IMG/VR virus record: IMGVR_UViG_3300032287_003360
Span: 1-56,893 of that record
Strand: one strand, 5' to 3'
From: a virus
Lineage: Duplodnaviria > Caudoviricetes
DNA length: 56,893 nucleotides
Shown here: positions 1-51,718 of the stretch, in pieces
Numbering within the stretch: position 1 is the stretch's first letter
How the letters are laid out: each line of letters starts with the position of its first letter
Translations under genes and position numbers: made by a program
Notes under the pieces: model-generated
Told to the model about the DNA's origin: nothing
The model's database searches: none
Seen by the model: only the letters and a program-made list of their open reading frames with translations

Positions 1-123
1 CAATCAGCAGTATACCCTTCGAACCTGTTAATAGTAGAATTATAACGCATCATGCCAGCCGAAGGGCTGGCAGGGCGCTGCGCAGTTGTACCCAAAGGCG
101 GGGTCATAGACTGTTGAGTAGGA
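1..123. repeat. Terminal overlap identical to 56771-56893 (circular contig)
   Basis: Exact 123-nt identity of both ends; an ORF reads through the join. Confidence 0.95.
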
Positions 124-299
124 TCCACAGAAATGGCAAGTTCTTGAGCCGCACCAGCAGCAGAACTATCGCGACCGAGCACTTTACCAGCCGCCATCGT
201 TATATCATGATTATCATTCCAATTCGACGGCTGAATGCGCGTCGAATCGAGTCCGTCAACTTTTGCAGAATTGAACTTATGCTTAACCACAATTGTCAT
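1..299 (-). CDS. 5' part of tail fibre gene (continues into 55681-56770 across the circular join)
   Basis: ATG at 299 with GGAG upstream; MTIVVKHKFNSAKVDG...QQSMTPPLG is in frame with the 398-aa ORF, giving about 462 aa in total. Confidence 0.85.
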   Translation of the reverse strand, partial: MTIVVKHKFNSAKVDGLDSTRIQPSNWNDNHDITMAAGKVLGRDSSAAGAAQELAISVDPTQQSMTPPLGTTAQRPASPSAGMMRYNSTINRFEGYTAD

Positions 300-2346: not shown

Positions 2347-3348
2347 TTAGGCCCTGGTGATGACCGCCTGAGCCAAGGCGGTGCCGTCGACGACCTGGTA
2401 ACCGTAGACCTGAAGGCCACGGAGGATCTGACCGAAGACGAGTTCCGAACGCATGGTCTCAACCTTCGAAATCTGCGATGCGAAGGTAAGACCGTGGGCG
2501 TGCCCGGCATAGATCGCAAACTCACCAGCAGCCAGGCCACCGGCAACACCGGCAGGCAGGAGGTTGGACGAGTAGATGGTAAAGCGATCGATCATACCGA
2601 TGCGGCCATTACGCAGCGGCGAGATGTTGTCACCAGTCAGGTAAGCCTGGCGCAAATCCGAGAACTTCAGATAAGCGCAAGCCCAGACCGGAATGACAAG
2701 CCAACGGCCATCTTCCGGTATGTTCTGTTCATCGAGCACCTGACCAAGACGCAGAATCAAGTCGAGAATTTCGACCTGACCAGCCGACGGAGAACGAGAA
2801 ACAGTGGCGAGCGGAGTACCCGAAGCGCCAAGGTTGACCGACTGCGTGATGCGGCCCGCCGTGGTTCCGCGATTGCGGACGTTCATGGCGCCGAGAATGC
2901 CACCGAGGACATCGGTATCGACCTGAATTTTGAGCTGCTGAGCAGCGTCATCAGACCAAATCGACAGGGCATTCAGATCGGACTGAATGTCCATGACATC
3001 GTCGAGGATCGTGTTGAAGTACTTACCGTTGCCGATGTACAACGTCAGGGAAGAACCTTCGGGACGCTCAAGCTGGAGCGTACCGTCAGCACGATAGTCG
3101 CGGATAGTAATGGTCGGCTTCGTGCGAATACGCACACGATCGCCCTGATTGCGGATCTCACCCTCATAATCGGTGTTGGAGATCGCAGACAGAACCGTCG
3201 AGGAGTAGAACTTCTCGACGAGCTTACCCGACCAGATTTCAGGGATGAAACCATTGGCCGCGAAAGCGTTACCAGCGCCGCCGCTCGGGTATACCGACGG
3301 AGTCGACACGCCGGTAGCTACGGGAAAACTTGAAGTCGGAATTGGCAT
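2347..3348 (-). CDS. Major capsid protein
   Basis: 333 aa; FIPEIWSGKL, YEGEIRNQGDRVRI and RGLQVYG motifs of P22-coat-like HK97-fold capsids; follows scaffold. Confidence 0.9.
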   Translation of the reverse strand: MPIPTSSFPVATGVSTPSVYPSGGAGNAFAANGFIPEIWSGKLVEKFYSSTVLSAISNTDYEGEIRNQGDRVRIRTKPTITIRDYRADGTLQLERPEGSSLTLYIGNGKYFNTILDDVMDIQSDLNALSIWSDDAAQQLKIQVDTDVLGGILGAMNVRNRGTTAGRITQSVNLGASGTPLATVSRSPSAGQVEILDLILRLGQVLDEQNIPEDGRWLVIPVWACAYLKFSDLRQAYLTGDNISPLRNGRIGMIDRFTIYSSNLLPAGVAGGLAAGEFAIYAGHAHGLTFASQISKVETMRSELVFGQILRGLQVYGYQVVDGTALAQAVITRA

Positions 3349-5634: not shown

Positions 5635-5907
5635 TCAGTATTTCTTGCAGGAGAGTTGTTTGCCCTTACCACTTACCATGGTTTGGGCGTTTCCGTCCTC
5701 CTGAAACTTGGGGAGGTAGGAACTTGCTTTTTTGCCAGAGGACGAGGAACCACCCACGGCTTCCTTCATAGCCCTCGACGGCTTGTATGGCTTCGGTTTC
5801 GGGATGTAACTCTTGCGCGGTTTCTTCATGCCAAGGTTCATCCCAGGTCCTTTAACCTGCCTGACGGCGGACTTCATACCTCTGGATTTTGTGAAATCTT
5901 TCATCAC
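5635..5907 (-). CDS. Small basic Lys-rich protein
   Basis: 90 aa, overlaps the portal stop. Confidence 0.6.
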   Translation of the reverse strand: MMKDFTKSRGMKSAVRQVKGPGMNLGMKKPRKSYIPKPKPYKPSRAMKEAVGGSSSSGKKASSYLPKFQEDGNAQTMVSGKGKQLSCKKY

Positions 5908-7988
5908 GAACCCCCTGAAATATTAGTACGCGGCCCCATGTCGCCGGAAGCACCAGTGCCCTGCTGCCCACCCTGCGCCAGTGCAGCCTGCTCGCCCAGA
6001 CCCGAGTGGCCAGGAATACCCTGCTGCTCAGCCTGTATAGCAGCCATCTTCTGCATGCCGTCAAGCTCATCATCAGATGGTACGATCTGCTCGCCTGGCA
6101 AGCCGATCGTCTGTGCAACGTTGCGAAGAATAGCCGCGCGACCCTTGGGACCAACGATCTGCGCATCGATCGGGTTGGCCGTGATCTGAAGAAACTCAAG
6201 CTGACGAGCACGTTGGGTTTCTTTCTGCACCGCGACAGACACACCCAGAACGCGGACTTTCTCCTCACCAGTCAGCATGCCCGACTGATCAGTGAGCATG
6301 ACCATGTCGTAGAGCGCACTTAGAAGCGGATCAAGAACATCACGATCGATGTTCGCCGCAACTGTCTGGAGGATCTTGGACGCATTGCCCATGAGCATTG
6401 CAAGCCCTGAAGCCGTGCGCCCTGCGCCGCCTGTAGCTCCAGACCCAGCAAGATATTTCGGTATGGCCGAGAGCTCATCGGCCATATCCACAAAACGCTG
6501 GTAAACCCCCAGCAGTTCCTGCGCGTTCGAGTTCGGCTGGAAGAAACTCACCGGAGGGGCACTGTTGTTACCCATCGGATCGCTCTGGACGTGCCAGCGC
6601 TTCCATGGATAAAGCTGCTCGCCATCTTCGTCGTTGGAAATCCGATCATCGTTCACAACGACCTGCGGACCTGAAGATATGCTCAGGTTGTTGATCAGCG
6701 CGCGAAGCGTAGCGTTGCTCGCCTCCTGCACGTCGTTGAGAATGTCGGGAAGCCCGTTACCGACAGGGGTGCCTGGTACCTTCTCAAAGCTGGTGATGTA
6801 GTAGGGGTGCCGTTTCCTCGGCGAAGGCGCCATCTGAACCTTGATGACATAGTTGCCAACCAGCCATGCCTGCACAAAGTAGTCCCGCAGCGGGTCCGCA
6901 ATCAGATCTTCTTCCAGGCCATAATCAAGCAACATCTGGCCCTGAATATTGCCTGTGTACTCAAGGCAGTTGATCATCCCCGACTGGTTAAGGCTCGGGT
7001 TTTCGCGGGACTCCTGTACGGCGCGCTCATTGTCAGTTGAATCCCAATTGTCAGCCAGACCTCCCTGGCCATACAAGCGTAGCACTTCGCGCAGGGCTTC
7101 CTGATTGTAGCCCGGCAAATCGAGCAGGTCATTGAGATCGGCCCTCGTAAGCCTCGTGCGCTCGATTATGGCCGCATCTTCAATGTCGCTGACGCCGGGT
7201 GTCCACCAAATATCGAACGGTGAAATGCGCATCCAGGTGAGACGCGGCATCTGCTTGACGACCGCTTCGTTGCTTTCCCAGATAACCGTCGGAACAATCC
7301 TGACAACAGGCCCTTTGATGCACGCAAAGGGAAACAGAGGAAGATCAGAGATAAACTCAGCCAGCGCTTTATAGAAGCCACCCTGTTTGAGAAGCTCGTC
7401 AAGCTTATCCTCAGCGACGCGCGCCTGATACCCGACTTTCTTCTTGGCAGCCTGGCGGGCAGCCTCAACAAGCTGCTGAGTACGATCGCGAATAGCATCG
7501 ATGTCAGGAGGCTGACCAGCACCAGCGAGCCCGGCAATCTCCGAAGTCACCAGCTCGTTGATCGATTTCATGATGTCTTCAGGAATTTTCGGATCGTCAG
7601 CAGGATCGAGTCCCCATGGGCGATCCGGGGAGAGATACACGTCCCGCAAAAGCGAGCTTGCTCCCCGGCATTTCATCGCGACGACACGGGCATAGATTTC
7701 CGAACCGCCAAACTGCTTGATCTCGGTTAGCTTGGCTGCGTCATATTGTCCATTGAAGACCCGCAATGCATTGAGGAGCCGATCTGACCAACCTGAGTAC
7801 GTATTGGACCGATGGCGCTTCATCTGATCAAACTCTCTGCGGATGTACCCCGCAAGGTTTGTCATCACTTCAGATGAAGAATTTGCTGCATCCTTGGCAG
7901 CAGCCATCTCTTCGTCACGCGCCTTGAGGGCAGCGTCAAGCTCGTTAGGACCGACAACGCGCAAGACTGCGCCCAATGCTTGTGCCAT
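5904..7988 (-). CDS. Portal protein
   Basis: About 694 aa from ATG 7988; RISPFDIWW, GNGLPDIL and GRTASGLAMLM motifs of podovirus portals; first gene of the head operon. Confidence 0.88.
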   Translation of the reverse strand: MAQALGAVLRVVGPNELDAALKARDEEMAAAKDAANSSSEVMTNLAGYIRREFDQMKRHRSNTYSGWSDRLLNALRVFNGQYDAAKLTEIKQFGGSEIYARVVAMKCRGASSLLRDVYLSPDRPWGLDPADDPKIPEDIMKSINELVTSEIAGLAGAGQPPDIDAIRDRTQQLVEAARQAAKKKVGYQARVAEDKLDELLKQGGFYKALAEFISDLPLFPFACIKGPVVRIVPTVIWESNEAVVKQMPRLTWMRISPFDIWWTPGVSDIEDAAIIERTRLTRADLNDLLDLPGYNQEALREVLRLYGQGGLADNWDSTDNERAVQESRENPSLNQSGMINCLEYTGNIQGQMLLDYGLEEDLIADPLRDYFVQAWLVGNYVIKVQMAPSPRKRHPYYITSFEKVPGTPVGNGLPDILNDVQEASNATLRALINNLSISSGPQVVVNDDRISNDEDGEQLYPWKRWHVQSDPMGNNSAPPVSFFQPNSNAQELLGVYQRFVDMADELSAIPKYLAGSGATGGAGRTASGLAMLMGNASKILQTVAANIDRDVLDPLLSALYDMVMLTDQSGMLTGEEKVRVLGVSVAVQKETQRARQLEFLQITANPIDAQIVGPKGRAAILRNVAQTIGLPGEQIVPSDDELDGMQKMAAIQAEQQGIPGHSGLGEQAALAQGGQQGTGASGDMGPRTNISGGS

Positions 7989-8077
7989 GAAAATAAAATC
8001 CCGGCTCTCGACGATCACCCCCTAAATACAGTATGATGGGGGTGGAATGCAACTACTTATCTTTGCGGAGACACTAT

Positions 8078-8557: not shown

Positions 8558-8796
8558 ACAACATCGTAAAGTTCTACCCTAAAGACGCTGCAAAAAACCC
8601 TGACAACGTACTTGAGCAGGCTGTTGGAATCTATGATCAGGTGCTTGTTATCGGATACAACAAAGACGGCGGACTTGATGTGCGCTCTTCTCTGAACTTC
8701 CTAATAAAGGACATTTTCTTCGCGATCGATGAATTCAAGTTCAAAGTCCTCAACGGCGAATACGGCCACCGCCCCGAAGAAAAAGACACCGAATGA
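8554..8796 (+). CDS. Hypothetical protein
   Basis: 80 aa, ATGA overlaps on both sides. Confidence 0.7.
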   Translation: MNNIVKFYPKDAAKNPDNVLEQAVGIYDQVLVIGYNKDGGLDVRSSLNFLIKDIFFAIDEFKFKVLNGEYGHRPEEKDTE

Positions 8797-10238
8797 CAAC
8801 GATTAATTATACAGCACCCCCAACCTGCGCCCGTTTCATGAAGTCAGAGGCGTTCGGACGCCTGATCGCCGGTCCTGTCGGCTCCGGCAAGACTACTGCC
8901 TGCCTTTTCGAGCTTTTCCGCCGCGCCTGTGAACAGGTGCCAGCTTCGGACGGGCTGCGCTACACGCGCTTTGCGATCGTGCGCCAGACCCTTAAGCAGT
9001 TGAAAGACACTGTCCTCAAGGACATTACAAGCTGGCTGAAGGGCATCGCTGAGTACAAGGTCAGCGACAACACGATCTACATCGAAGTAGGCGATATCCG
9101 CTCCGAGTGGCTGCTGATCCCTCTCGACAACCCGGAAGACCAGCGCCGCCTGCTGTCTTTGCAGCTCACGGGCGCATGGATGTCAGAATCAATCGAAATG
9201 GATGTCGCCATCGTCTCGCCACTGGCTGGCCGCTGCGGGCGCTACCCAAGTGCAGCACAAGGCGGCGCTACCTGGTTCGGCATTATCGCCGATACCAACA
9301 TGCCATCTGAAGGCTCGTCATGGCACAAGTTCATGACGCAGACCCCTTCGGACTGGCAGATCTTCATCCAGCCAGGCGGCATGAGCGATGAAGCAGAGAA
9401 CCTGGAGTGGCTTACCCAGACCCCCGAAACGCTCAAATACCCCGTGAACGACGAACGCCGCAAGGCACAAGGGCGTACCTACTACGAGCGTTTCATCCGT
9501 TCCAACTCGCCAGACTGGTGCAAGCGCTATGTTCACGCTGAGTTTGGTGACGACCCTTCAGGCTCAGCAGTGTTCCGCGATTCATTCAAGCGGTCGTTTC
9601 ATGTCGTGGACGAAGTTGAACCAGTGAGCTCTTACCCTCTTCTGATGGGCCTGGACTTCGGGCGCGACCCTTGTGCGATCATCTGCCAGGCGGACCACAA
9701 GGGCCGTCTTCTGGTGCTTGAGGAAATCATCGCTGAAGACATCGGCCTTGAAACCCAACTTCAGCGCGGCATCAAGCCCGTGCTGATGCAGGAACGCTAC
9801 CTGGGCAAGTCGATCGTCGTGGTTGGAGACCCGGCAGGACGCCAGCGTTCGACGTTGTACGAAGAGACCAGCTTCGATCTGATCAAGCGCTATGGCCTCA
9901 GAGCATACCCTGCTCCGACCAACGACATCTCCAAGAGGCTGGGTGCTGTAGAGGCATGGCTCCTGGGCCAGCGCGATGGTGGCCCTGCTGTTCTTATCGA
10001 CGGCACCAGGTGCCCAACGCTCGTCAGGGCTCTCGATGGCGGCTACCGCTATGGCAAAACGCGCGGTGGCTTGCGCAAGCCCAATCCCGACAAGAACGAA
10101 TACTCGCATATCGCTGACGCGTTTCAGTACGCGTGTGTCACAGCGCACGGTGGCATGAGCGAGATGATCGCCAACAGGCTCATGTCGTCCAAGACGCGCA
10201 CATCACGGCAGCGGGTGCGCGCAGGCGCGTGGACTTAA
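8793..10238 (+). CDS. terL: Terminase large subunit
   Basis: Walker A GPVGSGKT, RFAIVRQT, DTN coupling motif, GLDFG and HIADA nuclease motifs. Confidence 0.93.
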   Translation: MTTINYTAPPTCARFMKSEAFGRLIAGPVGSGKTTACLFELFRRACEQVPASDGLRYTRFAIVRQTLKQLKDTVLKDITSWLKGIAEYKVSDNTIYIEVGDIRSEWLLIPLDNPEDQRRLLSLQLTGAWMSESIEMDVAIVSPLAGRCGRYPSAAQGGATWFGIIADTNMPSEGSSWHKFMTQTPSDWQIFIQPGGMSDEAENLEWLTQTPETLKYPVNDERRKAQGRTYYERFIRSNSPDWCKRYVHAEFGDDPSGSAVFRDSFKRSFHVVDEVEPVSSYPLLMGLDFGRDPCAIICQADHKGRLLVLEEIIAEDIGLETQLQRGIKPVLMQERYLGKSIVVVGDPAGRQRSTLYEETSFDLIKRYGLRAYPAPTNDISKRLGAVEAWLLGQRDGGPAVLIDGTRCPTLVRALDGGYRYGKTRGGLRKPNPDKNEYSHIADAFQYACVTAHGGMSEMIANRLMSSKTRTSRQRVRAGAWT

Positions 10239-10251
10239 CACCTAGTAGATA

Positions 10252-10315
10252 AGAAAAACCCCCGGCGGTGAAGCCGGGGGGAAGTTCAGGGAGGAAACTG
10301 CCTCGCAAAAGGCAG
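10252..10315 (-). ncRNA. Candidate suhB/MmgR-like small RNA with anti-SD segment
   Basis: Minus strand: hairpin, TTTCCTCCCTGAACTT, GC hairpin, T tract; upstream TTGCAA-N17-CATAAA. Confidence 0.55.
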
Positions 10316-10322
10316 TTTTTTA
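10295..10322 (+). terminator. Rho-independent terminator of terminase operon
   Basis: AAACTGCCT-CGCAAA-AGGCAGTTT followed by further T. Confidence 0.65.
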
Positions 10323-10544
10323 TGCGCGCTATTTTCAGCGTTTGCAAGTTAATGTTCTGATAATATTATGATAATGTTTGTAATTTGTTATGATGTGAGT
10401 TTGTAAGGTACCTAAAAAACATACCCCCCTACCCCCCGCCCCCCTGTCCAGATGGGGGTGGGGGTCTGGGCATCCCCTCCCTCCCCACCGTCGCATTACT
10501 TCGCCGGGTAACTAGGGCAAGAGGTAACAACGGAGGGAAATAAA

Positions 10545-10974
10545 CGGAGATACTGAGACAGTTGCAGGCTTCCCACCTGTCCCCGGCGCGCGGGAGAGCG
10601 CCAGCTTAAGGTCCCCATGCCATGAGGCATACGCGACGGTCGCCCATATAGGGATGACGGCACGCGAGGTGGACGGTTCGGCCCCACGCGGCACCTAGTA
10701 AGACCGCGCTGCAAGGGGCGAAGCGGGAAGGATTTGAAAATAACATAATCCTAGGCCGCTTCAGGAAGCCGAAACTATCGCACCATTGCATCATGGGGCG
10801 CCGCAAGCCGCAAGAGCGGCCCCGCGCCATAGGTAGTAACTCCGAAAGATCGGCTCGGTTTACGGTTCAATGCCAAAACCGTGAAACTCATTAACAGGCC
10901 GGGAGGTCAGAGCCCCGGCCCTGTTACTTTCCAAAGTTATCATTATGTTACCATTAGATTGCTTTGGAAAGTAA
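10545..10974 (+). ncRNA. Candidate large structured RNA with hammerhead-like basal junction
   Basis: No credible ORF; more than 10 hairpins plus long-range pairs GGCTTCC/GGAAGCC, ACTATC/GGTAGT and CGGAG/CTCCG. Confidence 0.6.
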
Positions 10975-10989
10975 TAGGAGGATAATCCA

Positions 10990-11214
10990 GTGAACCGCAA
11001 TCTCGCAGCCAAAGCCGTCAAGGCGAAAGCCGCTCGCATCGAAGCAGGCAAGCTTGAAGGCAGCAAGGCTGCCTACACCACCAAGATATCAGACCACCAA
11101 AGGCTTGCTGGTGCGCTCGCCTCAATGCCAGACGTTGTTATGGTGGCTGGTGTCACTGTGCGACGGTTCAAGGCCGGGCAGAACATGCGCCAGCATCTAC
11201 GGGCAATGTTCTAA
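10990..11214 (+). CDS. Small basic hypothetical protein
   Basis: 74 aa, AGGAGG RBS at 10976. Confidence 0.7.
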   Translation: MNRNLAAKAVKAKAARIEAGKLEGSKAAYTTKISDHQRLAGALASMPDVVMVAGVTVRRFKAGQNMRQHLRAMF

Positions 11215-11549
11215 ACACAACCTTAGGGTGATATGGGAACCTTGTAAGAACGTCACCTGAAAGACGCCAGCGGCGGTGCTCTCTATTCATATTCTTAATT
11301 CTTAATTCTGTATTATATATATATATGGGAGTAAAGTTGCTGCCATGCGGCAGTGACCCGCCCCCGCATCATCTCATCATCCCATCATCCCATTTTCCAA
11401 AAACCCCGAAATTTTTTATTGAGAATTAAGAATAAGAACTTATCGTTCAATATCAATGACTTAGCTCGTTGATATTCTGAACCGGCTTTTTCGTGTGATC
11501 AATTCCTGTCACGCTCGTGGCGGCACCTTGGCTGGAGCATGTGTCACCT

Positions 11550-24046: not shown

Positions 24047-25918
24047 ATGAAAACCATCGTGCTGGATTACGAGACCTACTATAGCAGCGAGTACTCTCTA
24101 CGCAAGATGACGCCGGTCGAGTACATTCTCGATCCGCGCTTTGAGGTTATCGGTTGCGCGGTCAAGGATGATGATTTCGCAAGGTGGTATGCTGACGATG
24201 AACTGCGCGAATATCTCAAGACGTTGCCTAAGAAGACAATTGTTGTAAGCCACAATGCGCTGTTTGACATGTGCATCCTTTCGTGGCGGTATAACTACCG
24301 TCCACACCTTATGGCCGACACGCTGGGTATGGCTCGCGCCTGGGTAGGACACAAGCTCAATTCTCTTTCGCTGGCGTCACTCGCTACCTACTATGGGGTA
24401 GGCGCGAAAGGCAACACAGTACGCTCGGTGGAAGGTATGAACCTTGCCGCCATCAAGCAGGCAGGCTTGTACAGCGAGTACGCACAGTACTCCTGTAACG
24501 ACGCTGATCTCTGCTACACCATATACCGCAAGATGATTACGGAGGGTTTTCCTGCCAGCGAGATTGCTGTCATGGACACCGTTCTCCGGTGTGCGACCCA
24601 ACCGCGCTTTGTTCTGGACCAGAACCTTCTTGCCGAGCACCTGCATAACACCGTGGCACGCAAGAGTGATTTGCTGGCGCGCTGCGGGTTGAGTTCCCGT
24701 GATGAACTCATGAGTAACGACAAGTTCGCAGAAGCACTTAGAAAACTTGGTGTAGAACCCCCAACAAAAATCTCTCCAACTACCGGTAAAGAGACATATG
24801 CTTTTGCTAAAACTGACTCTGCATTCATAGAGCTCGACGAACACGAGAATCCGGAAGTTCAGGCTCTGGTGGCGGCACGCTTGGGCGTCAAATCGACGCT
24901 GGAAGAAAGCCGCACGCAGCGCCTGATGACGATCGGAAATCTTACTTGGCCAGGTAACAAGCAGGGGCTTATGCCTATTCCGCTCAGGTTCTCGGGCGCC
25001 CATACACATCGTCTAAGTGGTGATTGGAAGCTGAATATGCAGAACCTCCCTCGCGGGGGCAATCTGCGTAAAGCCCTCAGAGCCCCGCCAGGGTACCGCG
25101 TAGTGACTGTAGATGCTGCACAGATTGAAGCGCGCATGGCTGGGTGGTTTGCTGGAGCCACCGCCCTGACGAGTGCCTTTGCCAACAAGGAAGACGTCTA
25201 TAGCTCATTCGCCTCCAAGGTGTTCGGACGGCCCATCAACAAGAAGGAACACCCGGTTGAGCGCTTCATTGGAAAGACTGCTGTGTTGGGACTTCAGTAT
25301 GGGCTGGGCTGGCCGAAGTTCCAGAAGACCGTGAAGATCCAGAGCAAAATCCAGCTAGGGCAGGAGATATCTCTTAGCGACGAAGAAGCCGCTAACGTCA
25401 TCAAGACCTACCGCACGCTATACTACCAGATCCCCGCCATGTGGAACCGGCTTACCACTCTGCTGCCTCGCATGACATCACCTGATCTTTTCGAGATGCA
25501 GTTCCCTGTAACATTCGAGCATGAGCGTATCAGGCTGCCTAGCGGGCTCTATCTGAACTACCATGATCTGGAAAACAGGGGTGGACAGTGGTGGTTTACT
25601 TTCGCAGGTAAGCCTAAGTATATTTACGGAGGTAAACTTCTGGAAAACATCACGCAGGCGCTGGCGCGCATTCATGTCATGGACGCGGCTGTTCGCGTGC
25701 GCAAGAGACTTAAATCCCTCGGACTCGCTGAAGAGGTCTTGGAACCTAACCTTGCGCTCCAGGCGCATGACGAGTTGGCCTACATTGCGCATGAAGAAAT
25801 CGAAGCCATGGTGCTCAGTATCGTACTCGAAGAGATGCGCCGCCCGCCCGCGTGGGGTACGGACATTCCGCTCGACGCTGAAGGCGGCTGCGGGGCGTCT
25901 TATGGGGACGCCAAGTAA
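24047..25918 (+). CDS. polA: Family A DNA polymerase with 3'-5' exonuclease
   Basis: ExoI DYET, ExoII HNALFD, NMQNLP, motif A DAAQIEAR, motif B KTAVLGLQYG, motif C HDE. Confidence 0.95.
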   Translation: MKTIVLDYETYYSSEYSLRKMTPVEYILDPRFEVIGCAVKDDDFARWYADDELREYLKTLPKKTIVVSHNALFDMCILSWRYNYRPHLMADTLGMARAWVGHKLNSLSLASLATYYGVGAKGNTVRSVEGMNLAAIKQAGLYSEYAQYSCNDADLCYTIYRKMITEGFPASEIAVMDTVLRCATQPRFVLDQNLLAEHLHNTVARKSDLLARCGLSSRDELMSNDKFAEALRKLGVEPPTKISPTTGKETYAFAKTDSAFIELDEHENPEVQALVAARLGVKSTLEESRTQRLMTIGNLTWPGNKQGLMPIPLRFSGAHTHRLSGDWKLNMQNLPRGGNLRKALRAPPGYRVVTVDAAQIEARMAGWFAGATALTSAFANKEDVYSSFASKVFGRPINKKEHPVERFIGKTAVLGLQYGLGWPKFQKTVKIQSKIQLGQEISLSDEEAANVIKTYRTLYYQIPAMWNRLTTLLPRMTSPDLFEMQFPVTFEHERIRLPSGLYLNYHDLENRGGQWWFTFAGKPKYIYGGKLLENITQALARIHVMDAAVRVRKRLKSLGLAEEVLEPNLALQAHDELAYIAHEEIEAMVLSIVLEEMRRPPAWGTDIPLDAEGGCGASYGDAK

Positions 25919-28354: not shown

Positions 28355-28514
28355 GTTTTTTGCCATTGAAGCTAAGGCTCCAGGCAAGAAACCCACTGAC
28401 CGCCAGCGGCTTCTCATTGAGCTGATCGCTGCTAGCGGGGGTAAAACCTTTGTGATCGACAGCGAGGACATTTCTGAATTGAAAGCATGGATTGAAGGGT
28501 TATCCGTCACATGA
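28221..28514 (+). CDS. VRR-NUC domain nuclease (resolvase-like)
   Basis: TPEGKIK, PTLD, AIEAKAPGKKPT..Q. Confidence 0.88.
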   Translation: MTPEGKIKKNISLHLRQRKGLWYNMPVPGGYGTPTLDYFGCYRGRFFAIEAKAPGKKPTDRQRLLIELIAASGGKTFVIDSEDISELKAWIEGLSVT

Positions 28515-30058
28515 TCCACATATCACAAAAACACCGTGTCATCGGTGTACCGTGGCGACCTGAGTTTGATCAGTTCTTCCCGGAAGCCAAGCGGGTTACT
28601 TTGGGAGGTAACAAGCTGGTGGTTGTTCCTCACGAGATGAACGTCACGCGTTACCTCCGAAACATCGGACTCGATGTTCCTGCCCCGATTATTGCCCACT
28701 ATGATTGGGCTGGCGGTAAACCGTTCGATATTCAGAAGAAGACCGCTGCGCTCTTAACCATGAACTCGCGGGCATATGTGCTCAACGGTATGGGCACTGG
28801 CAAGACCAAGGCTAGCCTGTGGTCGTGGCATTACCTTTATACGACAGGGGGAGCGGGAAAGCTCCTGGTGGTCGCTCCTCTGTCTACCCTCAACTTCACT
28901 TGGGCACGGGAGATATTTCAGACCCTGTCCGGCATCAAGGTACAAGTACTGCATGGCAGCAAACAAAAGAGGCTGGATAAGCTCGCTGATCAAGAAGCTG
29001 ACGTTTATATTGTCAATCACGACGGTCTTAATGTTATCGCTGGGGCTCTCGCGGACAGACCGGATATTGACTGCTGTATCCTTGATGAGTTGGCTGTCTA
29101 TCGGAATGGTGCTTCACAGCGCGCGAAGGTTACTCGACAAGTAACGAAGCGCATGAAGTGGTTGTGGGGCATGACTGGGTCACCAACGCCCAACGCCCCA
29201 ACAGACGCATGGGCGCAGTGTTCTATCATCACGCCCGGCAACGTCCCAAAATACTTCAATCGGTTCCGTGATGAGACGATGAACCGAGTCACACAGTTCA
29301 AGTACGCGCCGAAAGAAGGCGCGCTGGACCGGGTATTCGAGGTGATGCAGCCCGCTGTGCGGTTTACACTGGACGACGTGATGGAGTTACCTGAGCTCGT
29401 TGAGCGCACGATCGACATCGATATGGGACCGCGTCAGGCCAAGGTCTACAAGCAAATGGAAGAGCGTGCATACGCCATGGTAGCCTCTAACGAGATCACT
29501 GCCATGAACGCTGGCGCGGTTCTCATGAAGCTGCTTCAGATCAGTACCGGCTATGTCTACGCCAGGGACAAGTCAGTTGTATCGCTCGATAACGACGAGC
29601 GTCTGGAAGCACTGGTCGACGTGGTCAACTCGTCTGACCGGAAAGTGATTGTGTTTGTGCCCTTCGTGCATGCCCTTGGGAGCATCGCAGGGCGGCTTAC
29701 TTCGGAAGGTTACGATATCAGGACCGTATCAGGAGACACGCCCAAATCGGAAAGAGATCAGATATTCCAGCTTTTCCAGAATACCAGCGCCGTGAAAGTA
29801 ATCGTTGCGCATCCACAGTGCATGGCTCATGGCATTACGCTTACGGCTGCCGACACCATCATATGGTTCGCGCCAACTCCGAACCTTGAGATCTTCGAGC
29901 AAGCCAATGCTCGCATTCGCCGCGTAGGTCAGAAGCATCGACAGCAAGTGCTGATGTTTCAGGCTACCAAAGCGGAGAAAAAGATGTACGCGAAGCTCCG
30001 TGCGAAGCAGCGCGTTCAGAATGCCCTCCTCGAAATGTTTGAGGATGGATCAGAGTAA
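28511..30058 (+). CDS. SNF2-family helicase
   Basis: MGTGKT, ILDE, MTGSP, QANARIRRVGQ. Confidence 0.9.
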   Translation: MIHISQKHRVIGVPWRPEFDQFFPEAKRVTLGGNKLVVVPHEMNVTRYLRNIGLDVPAPIIAHYDWAGGKPFDIQKKTAALLTMNSRAYVLNGMGTGKTKASLWSWHYLYTTGGAGKLLVVAPLSTLNFTWAREIFQTLSGIKVQVLHGSKQKRLDKLADQEADVYIVNHDGLNVIAGALADRPDIDCCILDELAVYRNGASQRAKVTRQVTKRMKWLWGMTGSPTPNAPTDAWAQCSIITPGNVPKYFNRFRDETMNRVTQFKYAPKEGALDRVFEVMQPAVRFTLDDVMELPELVERTIDIDMGPRQAKVYKQMEERAYAMVASNEITAMNAGAVLMKLLQISTGYVYARDKSVVSLDNDERLEALVDVVNSSDRKVIVFVPFVHALGSIAGRLTSEGYDIRTVSGDTPKSERDQIFQLFQNTSAVKVIVAHPQCMAHGITLTAADTIIWFAPTPNLEIFEQANARIRRVGQKHRQQVLMFQATKAEKKMYAKLRAKQRVQNALLEMFEDGSE

Positions 30059-31978: not shown

Positions 31979-32008
31979 GGGGGTGGGGTAACGCCCACCC
32001 CCATTTTT
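31979..32008 (+). terminator. Rho-independent terminator
   Basis: GGGGGTGGG-GTAACG-CCCACCCCC then ATTTTT. Confidence 0.6.
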
Positions 32009-32021
32009 GGGAGCATACGTT

Positions 32022-34877
32022 GTGCTCGATCTTGCCCGCAAGTTTGCATCGCTGCATTTACCCTGGCCCGCTGATGGGCAGGATGGTTTCATCAACATTC
32101 ACTGGAGCGCGCCTGGCCAGAACGGCAGAAAGTTCTGGGATGGACGCGCTTGCAAAAACATTGACGAGTTCATTCGCACACTCGACTGGTTGAACAAAAC
32201 CGGTGAACATAAAGACATTTACATCTGTATGAGCTCTCAGCTTCGCGCTGAAGAGAAGGTGTCGAAAAAGGGCTTCAAGTACCTCAAAGCCTTGCGCGCT
32301 CGCCCTGACGTAGGCTTGCTTAAATCGCTATTTCTCGATATCGACGTCAAAGAAGGGGCGTATTCCGATACAAAAGCAGCGCTATCTGCGCTCAAGGATT
32401 TCATTACTTCAGCAGGTATCCCGCTTCCTACCGGTGTGGTGGCTTCAGGCTCCGGCGGATTTCATGCTCATTGGGCGCTAGACAAGGCGCTCCCCCGTGA
32501 TGAATGGCAGTCTCTAGCCAACGCCTTTGCCAAAGCGGCGCAGGAGCACGGGCTTCTGTTTGACTCCCAATGCACTGTGGATGCCGTGCGTATCTTGCGC
32601 ATTCCGGATACATTGAACTGGAAGTCGGATCCGCCCAAGCCGGTGAAACTGCTTTCATGCAGCCAGGAGATCTCACATGATGAGATGGTTGCATCGTTAA
32701 ACCGTTACATGGAGGTACTTCCTCCCCGGCAGGTGAGCAAGATAGCAGCCAATGACGAACTTGGCGCGGGGGTAACAACTCAAGCCCAAGAGATCGAAAT
32801 CACCGAAGTCGCCAAGCACTGTGGCTTTGTTGCAAGATCGCTCGGTACCGGGGGTGCAGAGAACGCCAACCCGCTATGGTTCATGACTGCTTCGATCGCG
32901 ACTTTTGTCGTTGAGGGCCGCGATGCGCTCCACTTGATGAGCAAGAAGCATACGGACTATGTACCCGCTAAAACCGACGAGTTGTATGACCGTGTTACTG
33001 CCCACCAGAAAGAACGAAATCTAGGCTGGCCCAAGTGCGAGAAGATCGCCGCTTACGGTTGCAAGGAATGCCAAAGTTGCCCACTGCTCGCGCAGAAAAA
33101 GAGCCCGCTCAACTTCGTACTCAAAGCCGCTGGTGACAAACCGGACCTTACACTTCCCGACCGTTACGTTCGCAATGGTGATGGGATTATCATGGTACGC
33201 ACGGTAGACGAATCAGGAACACCGATTACGTTCCCGATTTGTGCGTATCCGATGACCAACGGCTGGCTTAGCAACAACCCCTGGACGCTACACTTCACGA
33301 CCAAGCTTGACAGCGGACGCCGTCAGTTGATCGAGATACCTTGCGAAGTAATCACGGCCAAGGACAGTCTTGCCAAATATCTTGGCGGCAAGGGTTTCTT
33401 CGCTTCAGACAAGGACTACAAAATTCTCAAGGAGTTTCTCGTGGCGTGGCTAAGAAAATTGCAGATGTCTAAGGACAGCGTTATCAGCGCATCTCCGTTT
33501 GGCTGGTCTGTGGTGGACGGTAAGATCGAAGGTTTTGCTTACGGCGGGCGTGTCTGGATGAAGGGCATAGATCGCCCGGCAGCCAATCCTGATCCCGTTC
33601 TGGCGTACCAGTACTCGCCGCGAGGCAACCGCGAAGCGTGGGATAAGCTGGTTAGGATCATTTGTGACCAGCAGCGGGCGTCTCTGAACGCGGTCCTTGC
33701 ATCTGGCTTTGCTGGCCCTCTGGTGCGGTTTACAGGCCATCCTGGCTTGCTTCTCAATGCCTACAGCTCGGAGTCTGGTATCGGCAAGACAACCGCTATG
33801 AAGTGCGCGCAGTCGATCTGGGGCGATCCTATTCGTGCTATGCAGGGACTGAACGACACCTCGAACTCGGTGCTGAATAAGATGGGCCACATCAAGGCGC
33901 TGCCCATGTATTGGGATGAGATCAAGAGCGAGGCTCAGGTTAAACGCTTCTGCCAAGTGGTGTTTGACCTTACCGGTGGCCGTGAGAAGACGCGCCTTTC
34001 CGCCGACAGCACTCTCAAGATGTCTGGCACTTGGCAAACCATCATGACGTCAGCTTCGAACGACTCACTGATTGACCCCATGGCACGCGAAGTGGGTAGC
34101 ACCACGGCTGGGCTTTACCGCATGTTTGAGTATGTGGTGCCGGTTCCTACTTCGCAAAGTAACGAGCCCGGCGCGGTTCAGCGTCTTATTGGGCAGCTCG
34201 ACGACAACTTTGGGCACCCCGGCTTGGCATACGCTCAGTTTCTCGGCGCGAACCACGATCGTGTCGCCGAGGAAGTTGCCAAGATCCAGGATGAACTTGC
34301 CCGCGACAACTCTGGTAAGCAGGACGAACGGTTTTGGTTCGGGACCATGGCGGTGCTCATCAAGGGCGCTGAGTACGGCAATGAGCTGGGGCTTACTTCT
34401 ATTGACGTGCCGGACCTCAGAGATTTTCTTATAGGTGTGCTGGCTGACATGCGTAAGCAGGTAGCAGCTACGCCCAGTGACGTCACCACTGACATGAATG
34501 CCAGCGCTATTCTTGCCGAGTTCCTGAACGTACACCGTTCGCGTAACACCATCGTCACCAACCGCATTCACGTCTCTAAGGGCAAACCTCCCGTGGGGTC
34601 GATCAAGGTGCTCAGCGACATCTCCAAACTTGCCGAGTTGCGCATTCAGATCGGCAAAGACGACAAACTGATCAGGGTCTCTTCAACATACTTCACGAGC
34701 TGGATTGGGAAGGCTGGGCATTCGAGGGTTGCTTGGACCAAAAAGATGGAGGCAGAGTTTGGTCTGCGCCTTGTCAACGGGCGCCTCGGCGGTGGCACTG
34801 ATCTTGCTGCCACTGCAACAGAGCTTCTCCTGGAGCTCGATATGAACCACCCCAAACTTAGTCAGTACGTGGAATAA
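32022..34877 (+). CDS. Primase-helicase (AEP/RepB-like primase + DUF927 helicase)
   Basis: FLDID, SGSGGFHAHW, RILRIP, Cys cluster, Walker A SGIGKT, WDE; GTG start after GGAG. Confidence 0.85.
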   Translation: MLDLARKFASLHLPWPADGQDGFINIHWSAPGQNGRKFWDGRACKNIDEFIRTLDWLNKTGEHKDIYICMSSQLRAEEKVSKKGFKYLKALRARPDVGLLKSLFLDIDVKEGAYSDTKAALSALKDFITSAGIPLPTGVVASGSGGFHAHWALDKALPRDEWQSLANAFAKAAQEHGLLFDSQCTVDAVRILRIPDTLNWKSDPPKPVKLLSCSQEISHDEMVASLNRYMEVLPPRQVSKIAANDELGAGVTTQAQEIEITEVAKHCGFVARSLGTGGAENANPLWFMTASIATFVVEGRDALHLMSKKHTDYVPAKTDELYDRVTAHQKERNLGWPKCEKIAAYGCKECQSCPLLAQKKSPLNFVLKAAGDKPDLTLPDRYVRNGDGIIMVRTVDESGTPITFPICAYPMTNGWLSNNPWTLHFTTKLDSGRRQLIEIPCEVITAKDSLAKYLGGKGFFASDKDYKILKEFLVAWLRKLQMSKDSVISASPFGWSVVDGKIEGFAYGGRVWMKGIDRPAANPDPVLAYQYSPRGNREAWDKLVRIICDQQRASLNAVLASGFAGPLVRFTGHPGLLLNAYSSESGIGKTTAMKCAQSIWGDPIRAMQGLNDTSNSVLNKMGHIKALPMYWDEIKSEAQVKRFCQVVFDLTGGREKTRLSADSTLKMSGTWQTIMTSASNDSLIDPMAREVGSTTAGLYRMFEYVVPVPTSQSNEPGAVQRLIGQLDDNFGHPGLAYAQFLGANHDRVAEEVAKIQDELARDNSGKQDERFWFGTMAVLIKGAEYGNELGLTSIDVPDLRDFLIGVLADMRKQVAATPSDVTTDMNASAILAEFLNVHRSRNTIVTNRIHVSKGKPPVGSIKVLSDISKLAELRIQIGKDDKLIRVSSTYFTSWIGKAGHSRVAWTKKMEAEFGLRLVNGRLGGGTDLAATATELLLELDMNHPKLSQYVE

Positions 34878-47300: not shown

Positions 47301-47743
47301 TTAAGTCCTGCCCGGTTGTCTTCTGTAAGCTTGACAAACGCTTGCGTGTTCAACGCAGGATCGCTACGCGCATCACCGCTCTGACTGACAAGGCCGTAAT
47401 TTGTTCCCGTTCCTTTGGTGAACTGAAACAGGCCTGTTGCACCAGTGGGCGACACCGCCGAAGGGTTGTACGTGCTTTCCTTATACGCCATACGATAAGC
47501 GTATGGACGCAAATCCTCCGGAACATTTGCGTCAATAACTTTCTTTATGCCATCTGGAGGATCGTAGTATTTGCCACTAGTTTTGCCGACACCGGGGCCG
47601 AACGTACCCGGCGAACTTTTCTTAGCGGCATCGAAATCAAACGTATTTTTCCGGTTGTCAATGCGGTCGCGAATACCCCGAGAAACGCTCGAAGTTGCCT
47701 GGAACGCCGAAAAGAAATCCCGCATCTCAGCAGCGAAAGACAT
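44390..47743 (-). CDS. Internal virion protein with N-terminal lytic transglycosylase
   Basis: KESTYNPSAVS..GATGLFQF SLT motifs; 1117 aa. Confidence 0.8.
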   Translation of the reverse strand: MSFAAEMRDFFSAFQATSSVSRGIRDRIDNRKNTFDFDAAKKSSPGTFGPGVGKTSGKYYDPPDGIKKVIDANVPEDLRPYAYRMAYKESTYNPSAVSPTGATGLFQFTKGTGTNYGLVSQSGDARSDPALNTQAFVKLTEDNRAGLKKTLGREPTYGELALAHQQGLGGATYLLTGKGSDKLARQVQKGLAVNGIKSTGMEAATQIASFYGFDIGKGSPQGDSAIPSSYTEWSPPGSSNTEVAGNPESAPAEGSSEDPYQADDLLESSRDASNDISAIDIPEGAKLYKPGDLTGTPTLYAARGMSVPSRQTKPMVRPKPMVRPKPSLGKSPKKKNPWIPPRDPRTGPIPAPAPVEAIPLDAPYSASTTTVPWADEVSRVVRPTNSLGVWRPQQTVGAVADVPDVAEDKKPQKSNNIINSITDSIHSGSQGNKPSVIDYMLAENFQLPNKKPSKPPSNKPSVIDYMIDGSFKPPNKKPSKPPSNKPSILSGFGGLGGLGGFPKKPGNKKSIGMFADGGTVASAPMEETDNQLEEAPAQAIPVTPASNRSDANRNANRNALAMDQRERPAGESVSVGKAIDLGLKHLTKSLGLDRSGSAIGPDPDLRNKQRKLVNGAIAPNEGPPTSQEVQQIYQLVDPNGEIEDSMRTVYAMQKGVEFYLKRGDVDKAGKWAGALIQYSNLLSRRYGYEAVQAGKNGDVDGMVKYAIKAYDAVPDGLNADVQPVSGGYQVTRTNESGDVVDQHMLTPQQVFQMATGISAGSGYFEALMNVAEPGTSASASASARKEERAKARASNLDKLLPDMEQDMDPGEIEAWSAAVEDGDYETLNKIIGNVQFRRREKAKEKTQTKRDEIIDRRLEEGRKATEANLDKRLDASEERIDKRSKEAEEKDLAKRQRRVNGKVKLRADYEADMTPSEREQWDAAVEEVDPEALDDIMANVDRRRENTRSDKRFQEQNQAVDERTEKNRTAQEQRDLDKRTRRAGTLNELYDAYAPQMTAGQKRAWQKAFQDNDPETLQVIIDSIDRSFGAPMPGEEGTGEEAIPTNPVPPPVSGDAQAAPVGSKAGYLQNKTAPVTSKGKPVPPDVLAKAKAAIAEGRSRAGVIKKLQDAGYSVEGL
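46283..46450. repeat. 78-bp-period duplication (KKPSKPPSNKPSVIDYM)
   Basis: 46283-46325 = 46361-46403; 46346-46372 = 46424-46450. Confidence 0.85.
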
Positions 47744-47751
47744 ACTTTACC

Positions 47752-48852: not shown

Positions 48853-48855
48853 GAC

Positions 48856-49296
48856 TCAAGCTCCCCGCAGCGACCGCAAAGAACGCGGTTTCATTTTTAG
48901 CCACCGGCATTCCTCTGGTGTAATTGCCAAAACCAGACATGCCCCCTCTGGATAAGCATCATCGATCTTAGCTATGATCTTAAACCCGAGCTTTAGGTCA
49001 ATTTCAAGTGCTTTTATGTTGCTCTCGCAAACTTGACCAAAAACCTTCTTGCAACCTAGCTGATTAAATGGGTAGTCAAACACGCACCAGATCAGATCAC
49101 GCGTCGCCCAGTTATCTACAAAACCCGCCATATGGAGGTGAATACTCGCCCCGGTAAAGCATGTGAAGATTACTCCGCCAAGTAACCAGCCTTTATCGTC
49201 AACGCGGGAAATCACTCTGTCGCATACCGGATTGTAGTAGCAGCGAGCAGCATTGGCTATGGCATGCCCATGTTCTTCTTCCTGAAAAACAATCAT
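48856..49296 (-). CDS. GNAT-fold protein (T7 gp13-like position)
   Basis: FDYPFNQLG...N.KA....KLGF. Confidence 0.8.
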   Translation of the reverse strand: MIVFQEEEHGHAIANAARCYYNPVCDRVISRVDDKGWLLGGVIFTCFTGASIHLHMAGFVDNWATRDLIWCVFDYPFNQLGCKKVFGQVCESNIKALEIDLKLGFKIIAKIDDAYPEGACLVLAITPEECRWLKMKPRSLRSLRGA

Positions 49297-51696: not shown

Positions 51697-51718
51697 AGCG
51701 CGCTCCTGGCTTGCGTGC

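What the first reader, a model, noticed from the sequence alone, without database searches (positions are those of the whole stretch)
10545..10974. Large structured non-coding RNA candidate with a hammerhead-like basal junction
Seen, basal junction: stem I CGGAG(10545)/CTCCG(10840); CTGAGA at 10553; stem II GGCTTCC(10567)/GGAAGCC(10764) followed directly by GAAA; stem III ACTATC(10774)/GGTAGT(10832) followed by A, giving a GUA triplet. Stem II encloses about 190 nt of nested helices (CCACCT/AGGTGG, GGCGC/GCGCC, ATGCC/GGCAT, CGCGG/CCGCG, GAAGCGG/CCGCTTC with AGGATT/AATCCT). Stem III encloses GCCGC-AAGA-GCGGC. Further hairpins follow to 10974. Established: the hammerhead core is CUGANGA-II-GAAA-III-NUH-I. 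Deviations: extra nucleotides between CUGA and stem II, and an imperfect stem I base. Inference: a greatly expanded or degenerate hammerhead, or a new ncRNA class, at the head of the early transcript.
Basis: partly seen in the sequence, partly recalled or inferred. Interest (0 to 1): 0.85.

Follow-up and report, generated by a model that had tools for sequence, protein, structure and literature searches.

The report
Structured phage leader RNA, not hammerhead
The stretch is a real, conserved, folded non-coding RNA at the head of a phage's early genes, found in a handful of uncultivated phages and in no catalogued RNA family, but it is not a hammerhead ribozyme.

Summary
The region folds better than shuffles (z -4.63 for 10545-10974; z -3.72 for 10545-10844).

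The hammerhead reading fails:
- CTGAGAC is not C3-U4-G5-A6-N7-G8-A9, and no CTGANGA occurs in 10350-11050 on either strand or in 12 relatives.
- None of 13 homologues has G8/A9.
- Extra bases separate the "core" from stems I and II.
- The minimum-energy fold zips the "core" into a helix.
- Rfam gives nothing.

The RNA does have homologues in about nine lineages of uncultivated phage contigs, always in the same place: after a conserved box and C/G hairpin, and before a small basic ORF. Three hairpins are supported by compensating changes: H1 (10564-10580), Ha (10862-10882) and Hb (10897-20). G·U pairs outnumber A·C 14 to 2, which points to a plus-strand RNA.

Stems I and II clash with a helix inferred by comparison next to a conserved CGGTT.

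Most likely this is a cis-acting structured leader of the first early transcript. Its function is untested. It is a new, narrow RNA family of moderate interest.

The parts
10341..10369 (+). Candidate sigma-70-type promoter TTTGCA-17-TATTAT for the leader (context)
   Evidence: Consensus scan, (9 of 12 matches). No transcript data. The promoter position in relatives was not resolved.
10400..10419 (+). Conserved box TTTGTAAGGTACCTAAAAAA containing the palindrome AGGTACCT
   Evidence: Unique in the window at up to 3 mismatches. Conserved by blastn in relatives and seen in 15 loci.
10432..10464 (+). C-run/G-run hairpin (CCCCCCGCCCCCC / GGGGGTGGGGG) with conserved loop TGTCCAGA
   Evidence: Read. 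Kept in relatives with G·T or T-A at the interrupting position. Read by eye, no statistics.
10507..10519 (+). GGTAACTAGGGCA motif (CTAGGG kept in relatives)
   Evidence: One exact copy in the window.
10531..10563 (+).
   Evidence: Model R2 matches 14 of 14 family rows at E 1e-17 to 2e-6. Alignments A4/A5.
10564..10580 (+). Hairpin H1: GCAGG / CCUGU with conserved loop CUUCCCA.
   Evidence: 13 distinct sequences, 93.8% of cells paired vs 84.0% shuffled. 4 of 5 pairs changed on both sides. 0-1 of 500 shuffles reach the observed values.
10581..10766 (+). Variable central domain. P5 is CCCC 10682-85 / GGGG 10715-18. P6 is CGCGG 10687-91 / CCGCG 10704-08, with a 3' CUGCAA. A window-specific hairpin lies at 10720-10763.
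   Evidence: P5/P6 have counterparts with changes on both sides in L023/L151/L158/L161 (columns 214-256). All other helices here are thermodynamic predictions only.
10767..10855 (+). Helix AGCCGA 10767-72 / UCGGCU 10850-55 abutting CGGUU.
   Evidence: The equivalent helix in L023/L151/L158/L161 has 4 pairs changed on both sides (columns 259-300). In the window it is placed by position only. An alignment-free test was not significant (272 of 300 shuffles did as well).
10856..10882 (+). Conserved CGGUU, then hairpin Ha: ACGGUU / AACCGU with 9-nt loop CAAUGCCAA
   Evidence: Model R1. Helix 1: 7 pairs, 100% of cells paired, 5 pairs changed on both sides (stems ACG/CGU, GAU/AUC, UUC/GAA, GAG/CUC, UCA/UGA, and UCUU/AAGA in L029).
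10897..10920 (+). Hairpin Hb: GGCCGGG / CCCGGCC, loop AGGUCAGAGC, followed by a partly U-rich conserved tail
   Evidence: helix 2: 8 pairs, 86.7% of cells paired, 6 pairs changed on both sides.
10920..10981 (+). Long hairpin Hc (arms 10920-41 / 10957-78). Its 3' arm overlaps the first bases of the Shine-Dalgarno AGGAGG 10976-81.
   Evidence: I1: 22-nt arms, 86% complementary. A similar hairpin in L004, L037 and L014.
10990..11214 (+). First ORF after the leader: a 74-aa basic protein with N-terminal NRNLAAK and an aromatic C-terminal end
   Evidence: No Pfam or PHROG family. Low-confidence model with an N-terminal helix.

Best explanation
Window about 10531-10981 is the structured, non-coding 5' leader of the first plus-strand (early/replication-side) transcription unit of a 57-kb tailed phage. 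The leader probably begins near the box at 10400.

It belongs to a small, previously uncatalogued family of RNAs found in about nine lineages of related uncultivated phages, one copy per genome, always laid out in the same order:
1. conserved box and C/G hairpin
2. a near-invariant 5' motif
3. hairpin H1
4. a variable, GC-rich middle
5. a helix abutting CGGUU
6. hairpin Ha with loop CAAYGCCNA
7. hairpin Hb
8. a hairpin overlapping the ribosome-binding site
9. a small basic protein gene

It is not a hammerhead ribozyme.

Inferred, not shown: it acts in cis on expression of the early genes. The invariant 5' motif and the conserved loops of H1, Ha and Hb would serve as recognition surfaces for a factor. 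The candidates I favour are the adjacent small basic protein (as in lambda N/nut) or the transcribing RNA polymerase itself (as in HK022 put). Hb with its tail, and Hc over the Shine-Dalgarno, would set read-through and translation of the first gene.
For: **Family**
- Pattern scans found relatives in 5 of 41 hits, 9 of 31, 11 of 14 metagenome hits and 11 of 13.
- Model R1 hit 15 plus-sense sites in 93 sources, including a new one, L029. Model R2 hit 14.

**Structure**
- Ha and Hb: 92.5% of cells paired vs 73.9% shuffled; 11 of 15 pairs changed on both sides; 0 of 500 shuffles as high; slid controls 29-52%.
- H1: 93.8% vs 84.0%; 4 of 5 pairs changed on both sides.
- RNAalifold on four relatives finds P5, P6 and the helix next to CGGUU, each with changes on both sides.
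- MFE z-scores for 8 members run from -1.6 to -4.4.

**Strand:** G·U/U·G 14 vs A·C/C·A 2 in the three helices.

**Non-coding:** translated similarity is confined to the 5' motif and appears on both strands. There is no start codon in the window at the L023/L151 'ATG'.

**Context:** TerL and terminators lie upstream, and a promoter-like site is present. There is one copy per record in 3 of 3 records. The small-ORF family is always downstream. Hc overlaps the SD.
Against: - No transcript evidence. No RNA run holds the stretch (told under Tried and rejected).
- The global fold is unresolved, and the family is small and related, so shuffle controls overstate significance.
- The alignments used for counting were fitted to the models.
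- The window-specific middle (about 190 nt) has no comparative support.
- My helix next to CGGUU is not significant in an alignment-free test.
- The closest TerL relative (L003, 92% aa) carries an unrelated leader of similar length that folds no better than shuffles (z -0.17). The element is therefore dispensable or swappable within the clade.
- Only 3-4 of 80 TerL-related loci carry it.
- Nothing links the small protein or RNA polymerase to the RNA except position.
- No clear intrinsic terminator was predicted downstream.
Confidence: 0.55

Rival explanations
1. Hammerhead, or another small self-cleaving ribozyme, greatly expanded, cleaving after A10838.
For: GAAA 10771-74, the A10774-U10837 pair and a GUA triplet are present, and stems I and II are in the MFE.
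Against: - The core as defined in PMC3088659 section 13 is C3 U4 G5 A6 N7 G8 A9. The window has CUGAGAC, with A at position 8 and C at 9.
- No CTGANGA occurs in 10350-11050 on either strand, nor in 12 relatives.
- 0 of 13 homologues have G8 and A9.
- There are 3 nt between stem I and CUGA, and 8 nt between CUGAGA and stem II.
- Stem III is not in the MFE.
- Stem II competes with the covarying H1.
- There is no Rfam ribozyme match at E<=10 or at gathering threshold in 11 relatives.
Confidence: 0.02
2. A stable trans-acting non-coding RNA, processed out of the early transcript, that acts on a host or phage target (decoy, scaffold or multimeric particle like the large ornate phage-borne RNAs).
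For: - About 300-450 nt in size.
- An invariant 18-25-nt motif and conserved loops.
- One copy per phage.
- Strong folding.
- Flanking hairpins that could be processing sites.
Against: It always sits directly upstream of one ORF family in the same orientation, as a leader would. There is no terminator between it and the ORF. No transcript ends are known. It is swappable among close relatives.
Confidence: 0.17
3. A ligand-sensing riboswitch-type attenuator: a large aptamer, with Hb plus its U-rich tail as terminator and Hc as ribosome-binding-site sequestor.
For: - Hb is GC-rich and followed by a partly U-rich conserved tail.
- Hc overlaps the SD.
- In one subgroup an upstream copy of Ha's 3' strand could compete with Ha. 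This is clearest in L158 (0 of 200 shuffles as good). For L023, L151, L105 and L110, 8-21 of 200 did as well.
Against: - The alternative pairing is not significant in the window (35 of 200) or in 7 other sequences.
- 0 of 7 hits in 185,579 species' genomes belong to the family. The family is phage-only, which is unusual for metabolite riboswitches.
- The aptamer-sized middle is the least conserved part.
Confidence: 0.1
4. A DNA-level element (genome end, packaging or replication signal) whose hairpins form in single-stranded DNA, not RNA.
For: - It lies next to the terminase genes, with a unique conserved box and C/G-run hairpin upstream.
- Many contigs of relatives end nearby: 15 of 80 loci.
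- Assembly contigs of 3 of 4 runs break at 10400-10412.
- Both strands fold equally well.
Against: The G·U over A·C asymmetry (14 vs 2) fits a plus-strand RNA. The contig breaks lie at the box, upstream of the finding. The element ends in a hairpin overlapping an SD.
Confidence: 0.08
5. No function: a GC-rich spacer that folds well by composition.
For: Replacement leaders exist and one (L003) is not structured. 6-7-bp G·U-tolerant complements are what chance gives here.
Against: Near-invariant motifs persist across lineages whose flanks have diverged. Compensating changes are seen in three hairpins. z-scores are below -2 in 7 of 8 members.
Confidence: 0.05

Closest known systems
Hammerhead ribozyme
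   Same: A GAAA followed by an A-U-closed helix and a GUA triplet. Long-range stems can be drawn around them in the window sequence.
   Different: The CUGANGA half of the core is missing in the window and in every homologue. Spacers separate the 'core' from the stems. The stems are not conserved. No covariance-model match. The MFE pairs the two 'core' strands with each other.
Lambda N-leader with nutL and its RNase III hairpin (recalled textbook knowledge; no call)
   Same: A long structured leader directly after an early promoter, carrying conserved hairpins. Next comes a hairpin beside the ribosome-binding site, then a small basic protein as the first gene. The leader-plus-protein cassette differs between close relatives.
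   Different: No sequence or Rfam relation. This element is several times larger than boxA/boxB. The protein has no detectable relation to N (no Pfam hit). Binding and antitermination are untested.
HK022 put RNA (PMC9378689; abstract seen in the listing)
   Same: A cis-acting nascent RNA element of the early phage transcripts that could act on the transcribing polymerase without a protein factor. Same position downstream of the early promoter.
   Different: put is a short element of two stem-loops (recalled). This RNA is 300-450 nt and has no sequence similarity. No terminators needing read-through were identified.
Large ornate phage-associated RNAs GOLLD and ROOL (10.1101/2024.12.08.627333; abstract start seen in the listing)
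   Same: A large, strongly structured, phage-borne RNA of unknown function.
   Different: No Rfam match to those families. It is smaller, sits as a 5' leader of an ORF, and is known from only about nine phage lineages.

Membership tests
Hammerhead ribozyme | Core strand C3 U4 G5 A6 N7 G8 A9 (definition: PMC3088659 section 13) | tested here: not met
   The window has CUGAGAC at 10553-59 (A at position 8, C at 9). No CTGANGA occurs in 10350-11050 on either strand or in 12 family sequences.
Hammerhead ribozyme | Core strand G12 A13 A14, A15.1-U16.1 pair, H17 cleavage-site nucleotide | tested here: met
   GAAA 10771-74. A10774 can pair with T10837. A10838 follows. The MFE does not form this pair.
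Hammerhead ribozyme | Stems I, II and III abut the core with no mispair or spacer next to it | tested here: not met
   ATA lies between stem I and CTGA, and CAGTTGCA between CTGAGA and stem II. Stem II's 5' strand overlaps the covarying hairpin H1.
Hammerhead ribozyme | Core conserved among homologues | tested here: not met
   The homologous heptamers are CCGACAC, CCGATAC, CCGAAAC, CTGAAAC, CCGATCAC, ATCGGGC and ACAGGAG. 0 of 13 fit.
Hammerhead ribozyme | Match to a curated covariance model | tested here: not met
   0 matches at gathering threshold on the whole window. None of the 17 matches at E<=10 in 10200-11100 is a ribozyme. 0 matches in 11 homologous loci.
Hammerhead ribozyme | Mg-dependent self-cleavage | not testable with these tools
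   Needs in vitro transcription.
Any Rfam 15 family | Score at or above the family's gathering threshold | tested here: not met
   The only near-threshold hit is suhB/mmgR on the minus strand at 10244-10320, outside the finding.
Metabolite riboswitch | Conserved aptamer with a mutually exclusive expression-platform pairing, widespread in cellular genomes | tested here: inconclusive
   The alternative pairing with Ha is clearest in L158 and borderline in four other sequences of two subgroups. 0 of 7 hits in bacterial and archaeal genomes belong to the family. The ligand could not be tested.
N/nut-type or put-type antitermination leader | Nascent leader RNA binds a cognate small basic protein or RNA polymerase and suppresses downstream termination | not testable with these tools
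   Only position and cassette-like replacement were seen. No boxA/boxB search was made.

The most novel reading that the evidence does not exclude
This would be a large, autonomously folding phage RNA of a new class. Its invariant 5' motif and conserved hairpin loops would assemble into a tertiary core, and the nascent transcript would directly reprogram the host transcription or translation machinery (a put-like, protein-independent antiterminator several times larger than put). Alternatively, it would carry an as yet unknown catalytic or ligand-sensing activity. Either way it would be exchanged between related phages as a specificity cassette together with its small basic partner protein.
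Probability: 0.15. Interest if true: 0.8.

Novelty: new variant of a known kind. Interest (0 to 1): 0.45.

Why it matters
Long structured leaders at the start of phage early operons are where takeover decisions are made; lambda N/nut and HK022 put are the known cases. Few such leaders are known outside the coliphages.

This finding gives a defined, covariation-supported RNA family from freshwater and soil phages, whose nearest cultured relatives infect Rhizobium (54% TerL identity). It supplies concrete motifs to mutate and a candidate protein partner.

It also shows that a hand-drawn hammerhead junction in a GC-rich region can be an artefact: 6-7-bp complements are at chance level here.

If the RNA acts on RNA polymerase by itself, it would be a second, much larger example of RNA-only antitermination.

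Tried and rejected
**Searches that found nothing**
- blastn 'distant' of 10300-11000 against 50,697 phage records: no match.
- blastn of 10376-10990 against 80 TerL loci: 14 loci hit, all within window 10376-10519 only.
- Iterated nhmmer with the 315-nt core found only the window.
- tRNA/tmRNA scan: none.
- Two further pattern scans (TGATATTAGSCGCGC: 41 hits; CGCGCTGCAAKGGGG: 101 hits, 80 listed) gave no new member.
- The genome-contig scan gave 7 hits. I judged none to be family, from their flanks.
- Protein-anchored locus search with the small-ORF alignment: 110 pattern hits, 4 confirmed, all already known.
- T7-type RNA polymerase family search in the record: no match, but the control rang nowhere, so it is uninformative.
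- The cultured Rhizobium phage MN988472.1 has no R1 match and a different gene order after TerL.
- The two literature searches that ran turned up no paper describing this element in their listings.

**Tests that were uninformative**
- Alignment-free test of the helix next to CGGTT: not significant in most sequences.
- Pairing of 5' AGGUG with the Ha loop CGCCU was predicted for four relatives. Both motifs are invariant there, and the window, L152 and L127 do not fit, so I dropped it.
- A possible H-type pseudoknot after H1 in L023/L151/L158/L161 was seen by eye only and not tested.
- The AlphaFold model of the 74-aa protein has pLDDT 65, too low for a fold search.

**Expression**
- No RNA holder was listed for 10300-11300.
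- Contigs of four DNA runs showed no variation inside 10412-10981, so no population-level covariation could be read.

- mafft-qinsi and mafft-xinsi were not usable.
- A full-length covariance model was not attempted, because the calibration limit excludes about 400 columns. The third model build was left unused.
- Supplements of papers were not consulted.

Full report
**What the window is.** The window is a complete 56,893-bp viral record. It carries the following genes:

| Coordinates | Strand | Gene |
|---|---|---|
| 2347-3348 | - | capsid |
| 5904-8018 | - | SU10-type portal |
| 8793-10238 | + | large terminase (TerL) |
| 24047-25918 | + | DNA polymerase |
| 28511-30058 | + | helicase |
| 32007-34877 | + | primase/helicase |
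| 36969-54041 | - | large virion proteins |

The nearest cultured phages are Rhizobium phages, at 54% TerL identity.

The finding lies in the 750-nt gap between TerL and the first plus-strand ORF (GTG 10990, preceded by AGGAGG 10976-81). Upstream of the finding lie:
- terminator hairpins at 10259-10322
- a promoter-like site at 10341-10369
- a box, TTTGTAAGGTACCTAAAAAA, that is unique in the genome
- a C-run/G-run hairpin at 10432-10464

The region folds much better than dinucleotide shuffles. For 10545-10974, z is -4.63. For 10545-10844, z is -3.72. The opposite strand does as well (z -3.97). Part of the full-region signal comes from the long hairpin 10920-10978 (z -2.53 without its 3' arm).

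Instead, UACUG 10551-55 pairs with UAGUA 10834-38, and 10557-63 pairs with 10773-79. The supposed single-stranded core strands, CUGAGA and GAAA, are therefore zipped together.

**The hammerhead test.** Perreault et al. (PMC3088659, section 13, seen as a passage) define the core as C3 U4 G5 A6 N7 G8 A9, G12 A13 A14, A15-U16, H17. They reject any core mutation or any mispair beside the core.
- The window has CUGAGAC, with A at position 8 and C at 9.
- Three bases lie before CUGA and eight before stem II.
- No CTGANGA occurs anywhere in 10350-11050 on either strand, or in 12 family sequences.
- In the 13 aligned homologues the heptamer reads CCGACAC, CCGATAC, CCGAAAC, CTGAAAC, CCGATCAC, ATCGGGC or ACAGGAG. 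None fits.
- Rfam 15 gives no match at gathering threshold on the window or on 11 homologous loci. None of the 17 matches at E<=10 in 10200-11100 is a ribozyme.

The GAAA / A-U / GUA half is present, but it is not sufficient.

**Finding relatives.**
- TerL retrieved 80 related viral loci (88 confirmed of 94 candidates).
- By blastn only window 10376-10519 (the box and C/G hairpin) is conserved in them (14 loci).
- In the closest relative (L003, 92% TerL identity) the interval between the box and the next conserved block has the same length but an unrelated sequence.
- nhmmer found one weak full-length relative, L023 (E 1.3e-4).
- From the two motifs shared with L023 I scanned the collections. 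TACYGANACAGTYGCRGG gave 5 family loci of 41. GGTTCAAYGCCWAAACC gave 9 of 31. CGGTTN{3,4}GGTTCRAYGCCNAAACC gave 11 of 14 in metagenome contigs, 11 of 13 in viral contigs and 0 of 7 in one-genome-per-species bacterial and archaeal contigs. I judged the non-family hits by their flanks.
- Two further scans added nothing.

After removing duplicates there are about nine lineages: the window; L023/L151/L158; L161; L152/L153; L105/L110; L033; L029; L007 (5' half only); and a more distant group, L127/L155 and L157/L165.

Only 3 (R1) or 4 (R2) of the 80 TerL loci carry the RNA. There is one copy per record in the three records searched whole, and none in the cultured Rhizobium phage.

**Common anatomy.**
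1. box and C/G hairpin
2. a CTAGGG motif
3. a near-invariant 5' motif, (GAGGUG..)GGAGAUACYGAnACAGUY
4. hairpin H1 with loop YUUCCCR
5. 150-250 variable, GC-rich nucleotides
6. a helix ending 0-2 nt before an invariant CGGUU
7. hairpin Ha, GGUU-CAAYGCCNA-AACC, plus three variable outer pairs
8. an A/C-rich linker
9. GC-rich hairpin Hb with a partly U-rich conserved tail
10. a hairpin next to the ribosome-binding site
11. a small basic ORF with N-terminal NRN[LM]AAK and C-terminal HF/HW

**Covariation.**
- *Model R1 (CGGUU, Ha, Hb).* It re-aligned 16 matches. One of them is a spurious reverse-strand row at E 0.68, which stayed in the count. Of cells, 92.5% are paired against 73.9% in shuffles. 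Eleven of 15 pairs changed on both sides. No shuffle of 500 reached any of the five measures, and slid partners gave 29-52% paired.
- *Model R2 (5' motif and H1).* It re-aligned 14 matches. Of cells, 93.8% are paired against 84.0%. Four of 5 pairs changed on both sides, and 0-1 of 500 shuffles reached the observed values.
- *Caveats.* The sequences are related and the alignments were fitted to the models, so these figures lean towards the structure.
- *RNAalifold on four relatives.* It independently predicts P5 and P6, whose window counterparts are CCCC 10682-85/GGGG 10715-18 and CGCGG 10687-91/CCGCG 10704-08. It also predicts the helix next to CGGUU, with four pairs changed on both sides.
- *Window helix by position only.* I place AGCCGA 10767-72/UCGGCU 10850-55 in the window by position. 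An alignment-free test shows such a 6-bp helix is at chance level (272 of 300 shuffles).
- *Strand.* In the three hairpins G·U/U·G cells number 14 and A·C/C·A cells 2. This favours an RNA read from the plus strand over a DNA-level or minus-strand element.
- *Folding of members.* z-scores are -1.6 to -4.4 (8 sequences, 50 shuffles each).

- Stem II's 5' strand (10567-73) uses two stem bases and the loop of H1 (10564-68/10576-80), so the two exclude each other. H1 is the one kept in 13 sequences.
- Stem II's 3' strand overlaps the 5' strand of the helix next to CGGUU.
- Stem I's 3' strand lies inside that helix and would cross it.
- Stem III (ACTATC/GGTAGT) is compatible with the comparative model. 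It corresponds in position to the inner hairpin of L023 (GUACC/GGUAC).
The others are window-specific predictions.

**Not coding.** Stop-to-stop frames of the region give translated similarity to relatives only over the 5' motif, and in both orientations. The SD-plus-ATG seen in L023/L151 at that motif is absent from the window, L105, L033 and L007. The substitutions there are the compensating ones of H1.

**Function.** Nothing was measured. No RNA run holds the stretch, and four DNA runs show no variation inside 10412-10981.

From anatomy I favour a cis-acting leader. It is always oriented towards, and directly precedes, the same small-ORF family, and it ends in a hairpin overlapping the Shine-Dalgarno. 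It sits where lambda has nutL and the N-leader, and where HK022 has put (PMC9378689; abstract seen in the listing).

The invariant 5' motif and the conserved loops of H1, Ha and Hb look like recognition surfaces. The small basic protein has conserved ends, a variable middle and a predicted N-terminal helix (low confidence), and it is a natural candidate partner.

Against a necessary role: leader and protein differ together between close relatives. One replacement leader (L003) is not detectably structured (z -0.17), although another (L012) is (z -2.63).

A switch between Ha and an upstream copy of its 3' strand is plausible in L158 (0 of 200 shuffles as good). It is borderline in L023, L151, L105 and L110, and absent in the window (35 of 200) and seven others.

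**Verdict.** This is a real, conserved, structured non-coding element in no catalogue and with no known function. It is not a hammerhead. It is narrowly distributed, its global fold is unresolved, and its interest is moderate.

Noticed in passing
window 10244-10320, minus strand; L003 5433-5519, minus strand: Two hairpins separated by UUUCCUCCCU and ending in a U-tail score 39.2 bits to Rfam suhB/mmgR (RF00519, gathering 41, E 2e-6 for the 901-nt search). The same place in L003 scores 29 bits. This could be a phage-borne mmgR-like small RNA convergent with TerL, or only the bidirectional terminator.
   Followed up: partly
window 10400-10464: The box TTTGTAAGGTACCTAAAAAA (unique in the genome) and a C-run/G-run hairpin with loop TGTCCA are kept in 15 loci, even where the leader downstream is unrelated. 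Assembly contigs of 3 of 4 public runs break at 10400-10412. 15 of 80 TerL loci end 100-800 nt after TerL. Possible explanations are a genome end, a recombination junction or an assembly-graph branch point.
   Followed up: partly
window 1-299 and 55681-56892: Minus-strand ORFs run off both ends of the record. The record's 'direct terminal repeat' therefore looks like a circular-assembly overlap cut inside a gene, not a physical end.
   Followed up: no
window 10990-11214; L023, L105, L127, L007, L012, L003 equivalents: A family of 55-95-aa basic proteins follows the leader in every relative, including those with unrelated leaders. It has N-terminal NRN[LM]AAK..K and C-terminal HF/HW. There is no Pfam or PHROG match.
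   Followed up: partly
L003 5440-7450 and L004 5440-7600: About 2 kb of extra DNA with minus-strand ORFs lies between TerL and the conserved box in the two closest relatives. It is absent from the window. Not annotated here.
   Followed up: no
L007 3790-3970; L014 6265-6290; L012 6510-6530: A motif like TAACCTCGAAAGGTAACA(C/T)CATG precedes successive early ORFs in relatives (a shared ribosome-binding or intergenic signal).
   Followed up: no
window 11367-11398: Three overlapping copies of CATCATCYCATCATCC (8-nt period) lie in the next intergenic stretch.
   Followed up: no
L023 5722-5780; L161 1058-1115: After H1, two interleaved complementary pairs (GCAUGG/CCAUGC with GGGUCC/GGACCC in L023; CGCAC/GUGCG with GGGUUU/AAACCC in L161) could form an H-type pseudoknot. 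Seen by eye only. A weaker equivalent in the window is GGCGC/GCGCC with GGGA/UCCC.
   Followed up: no
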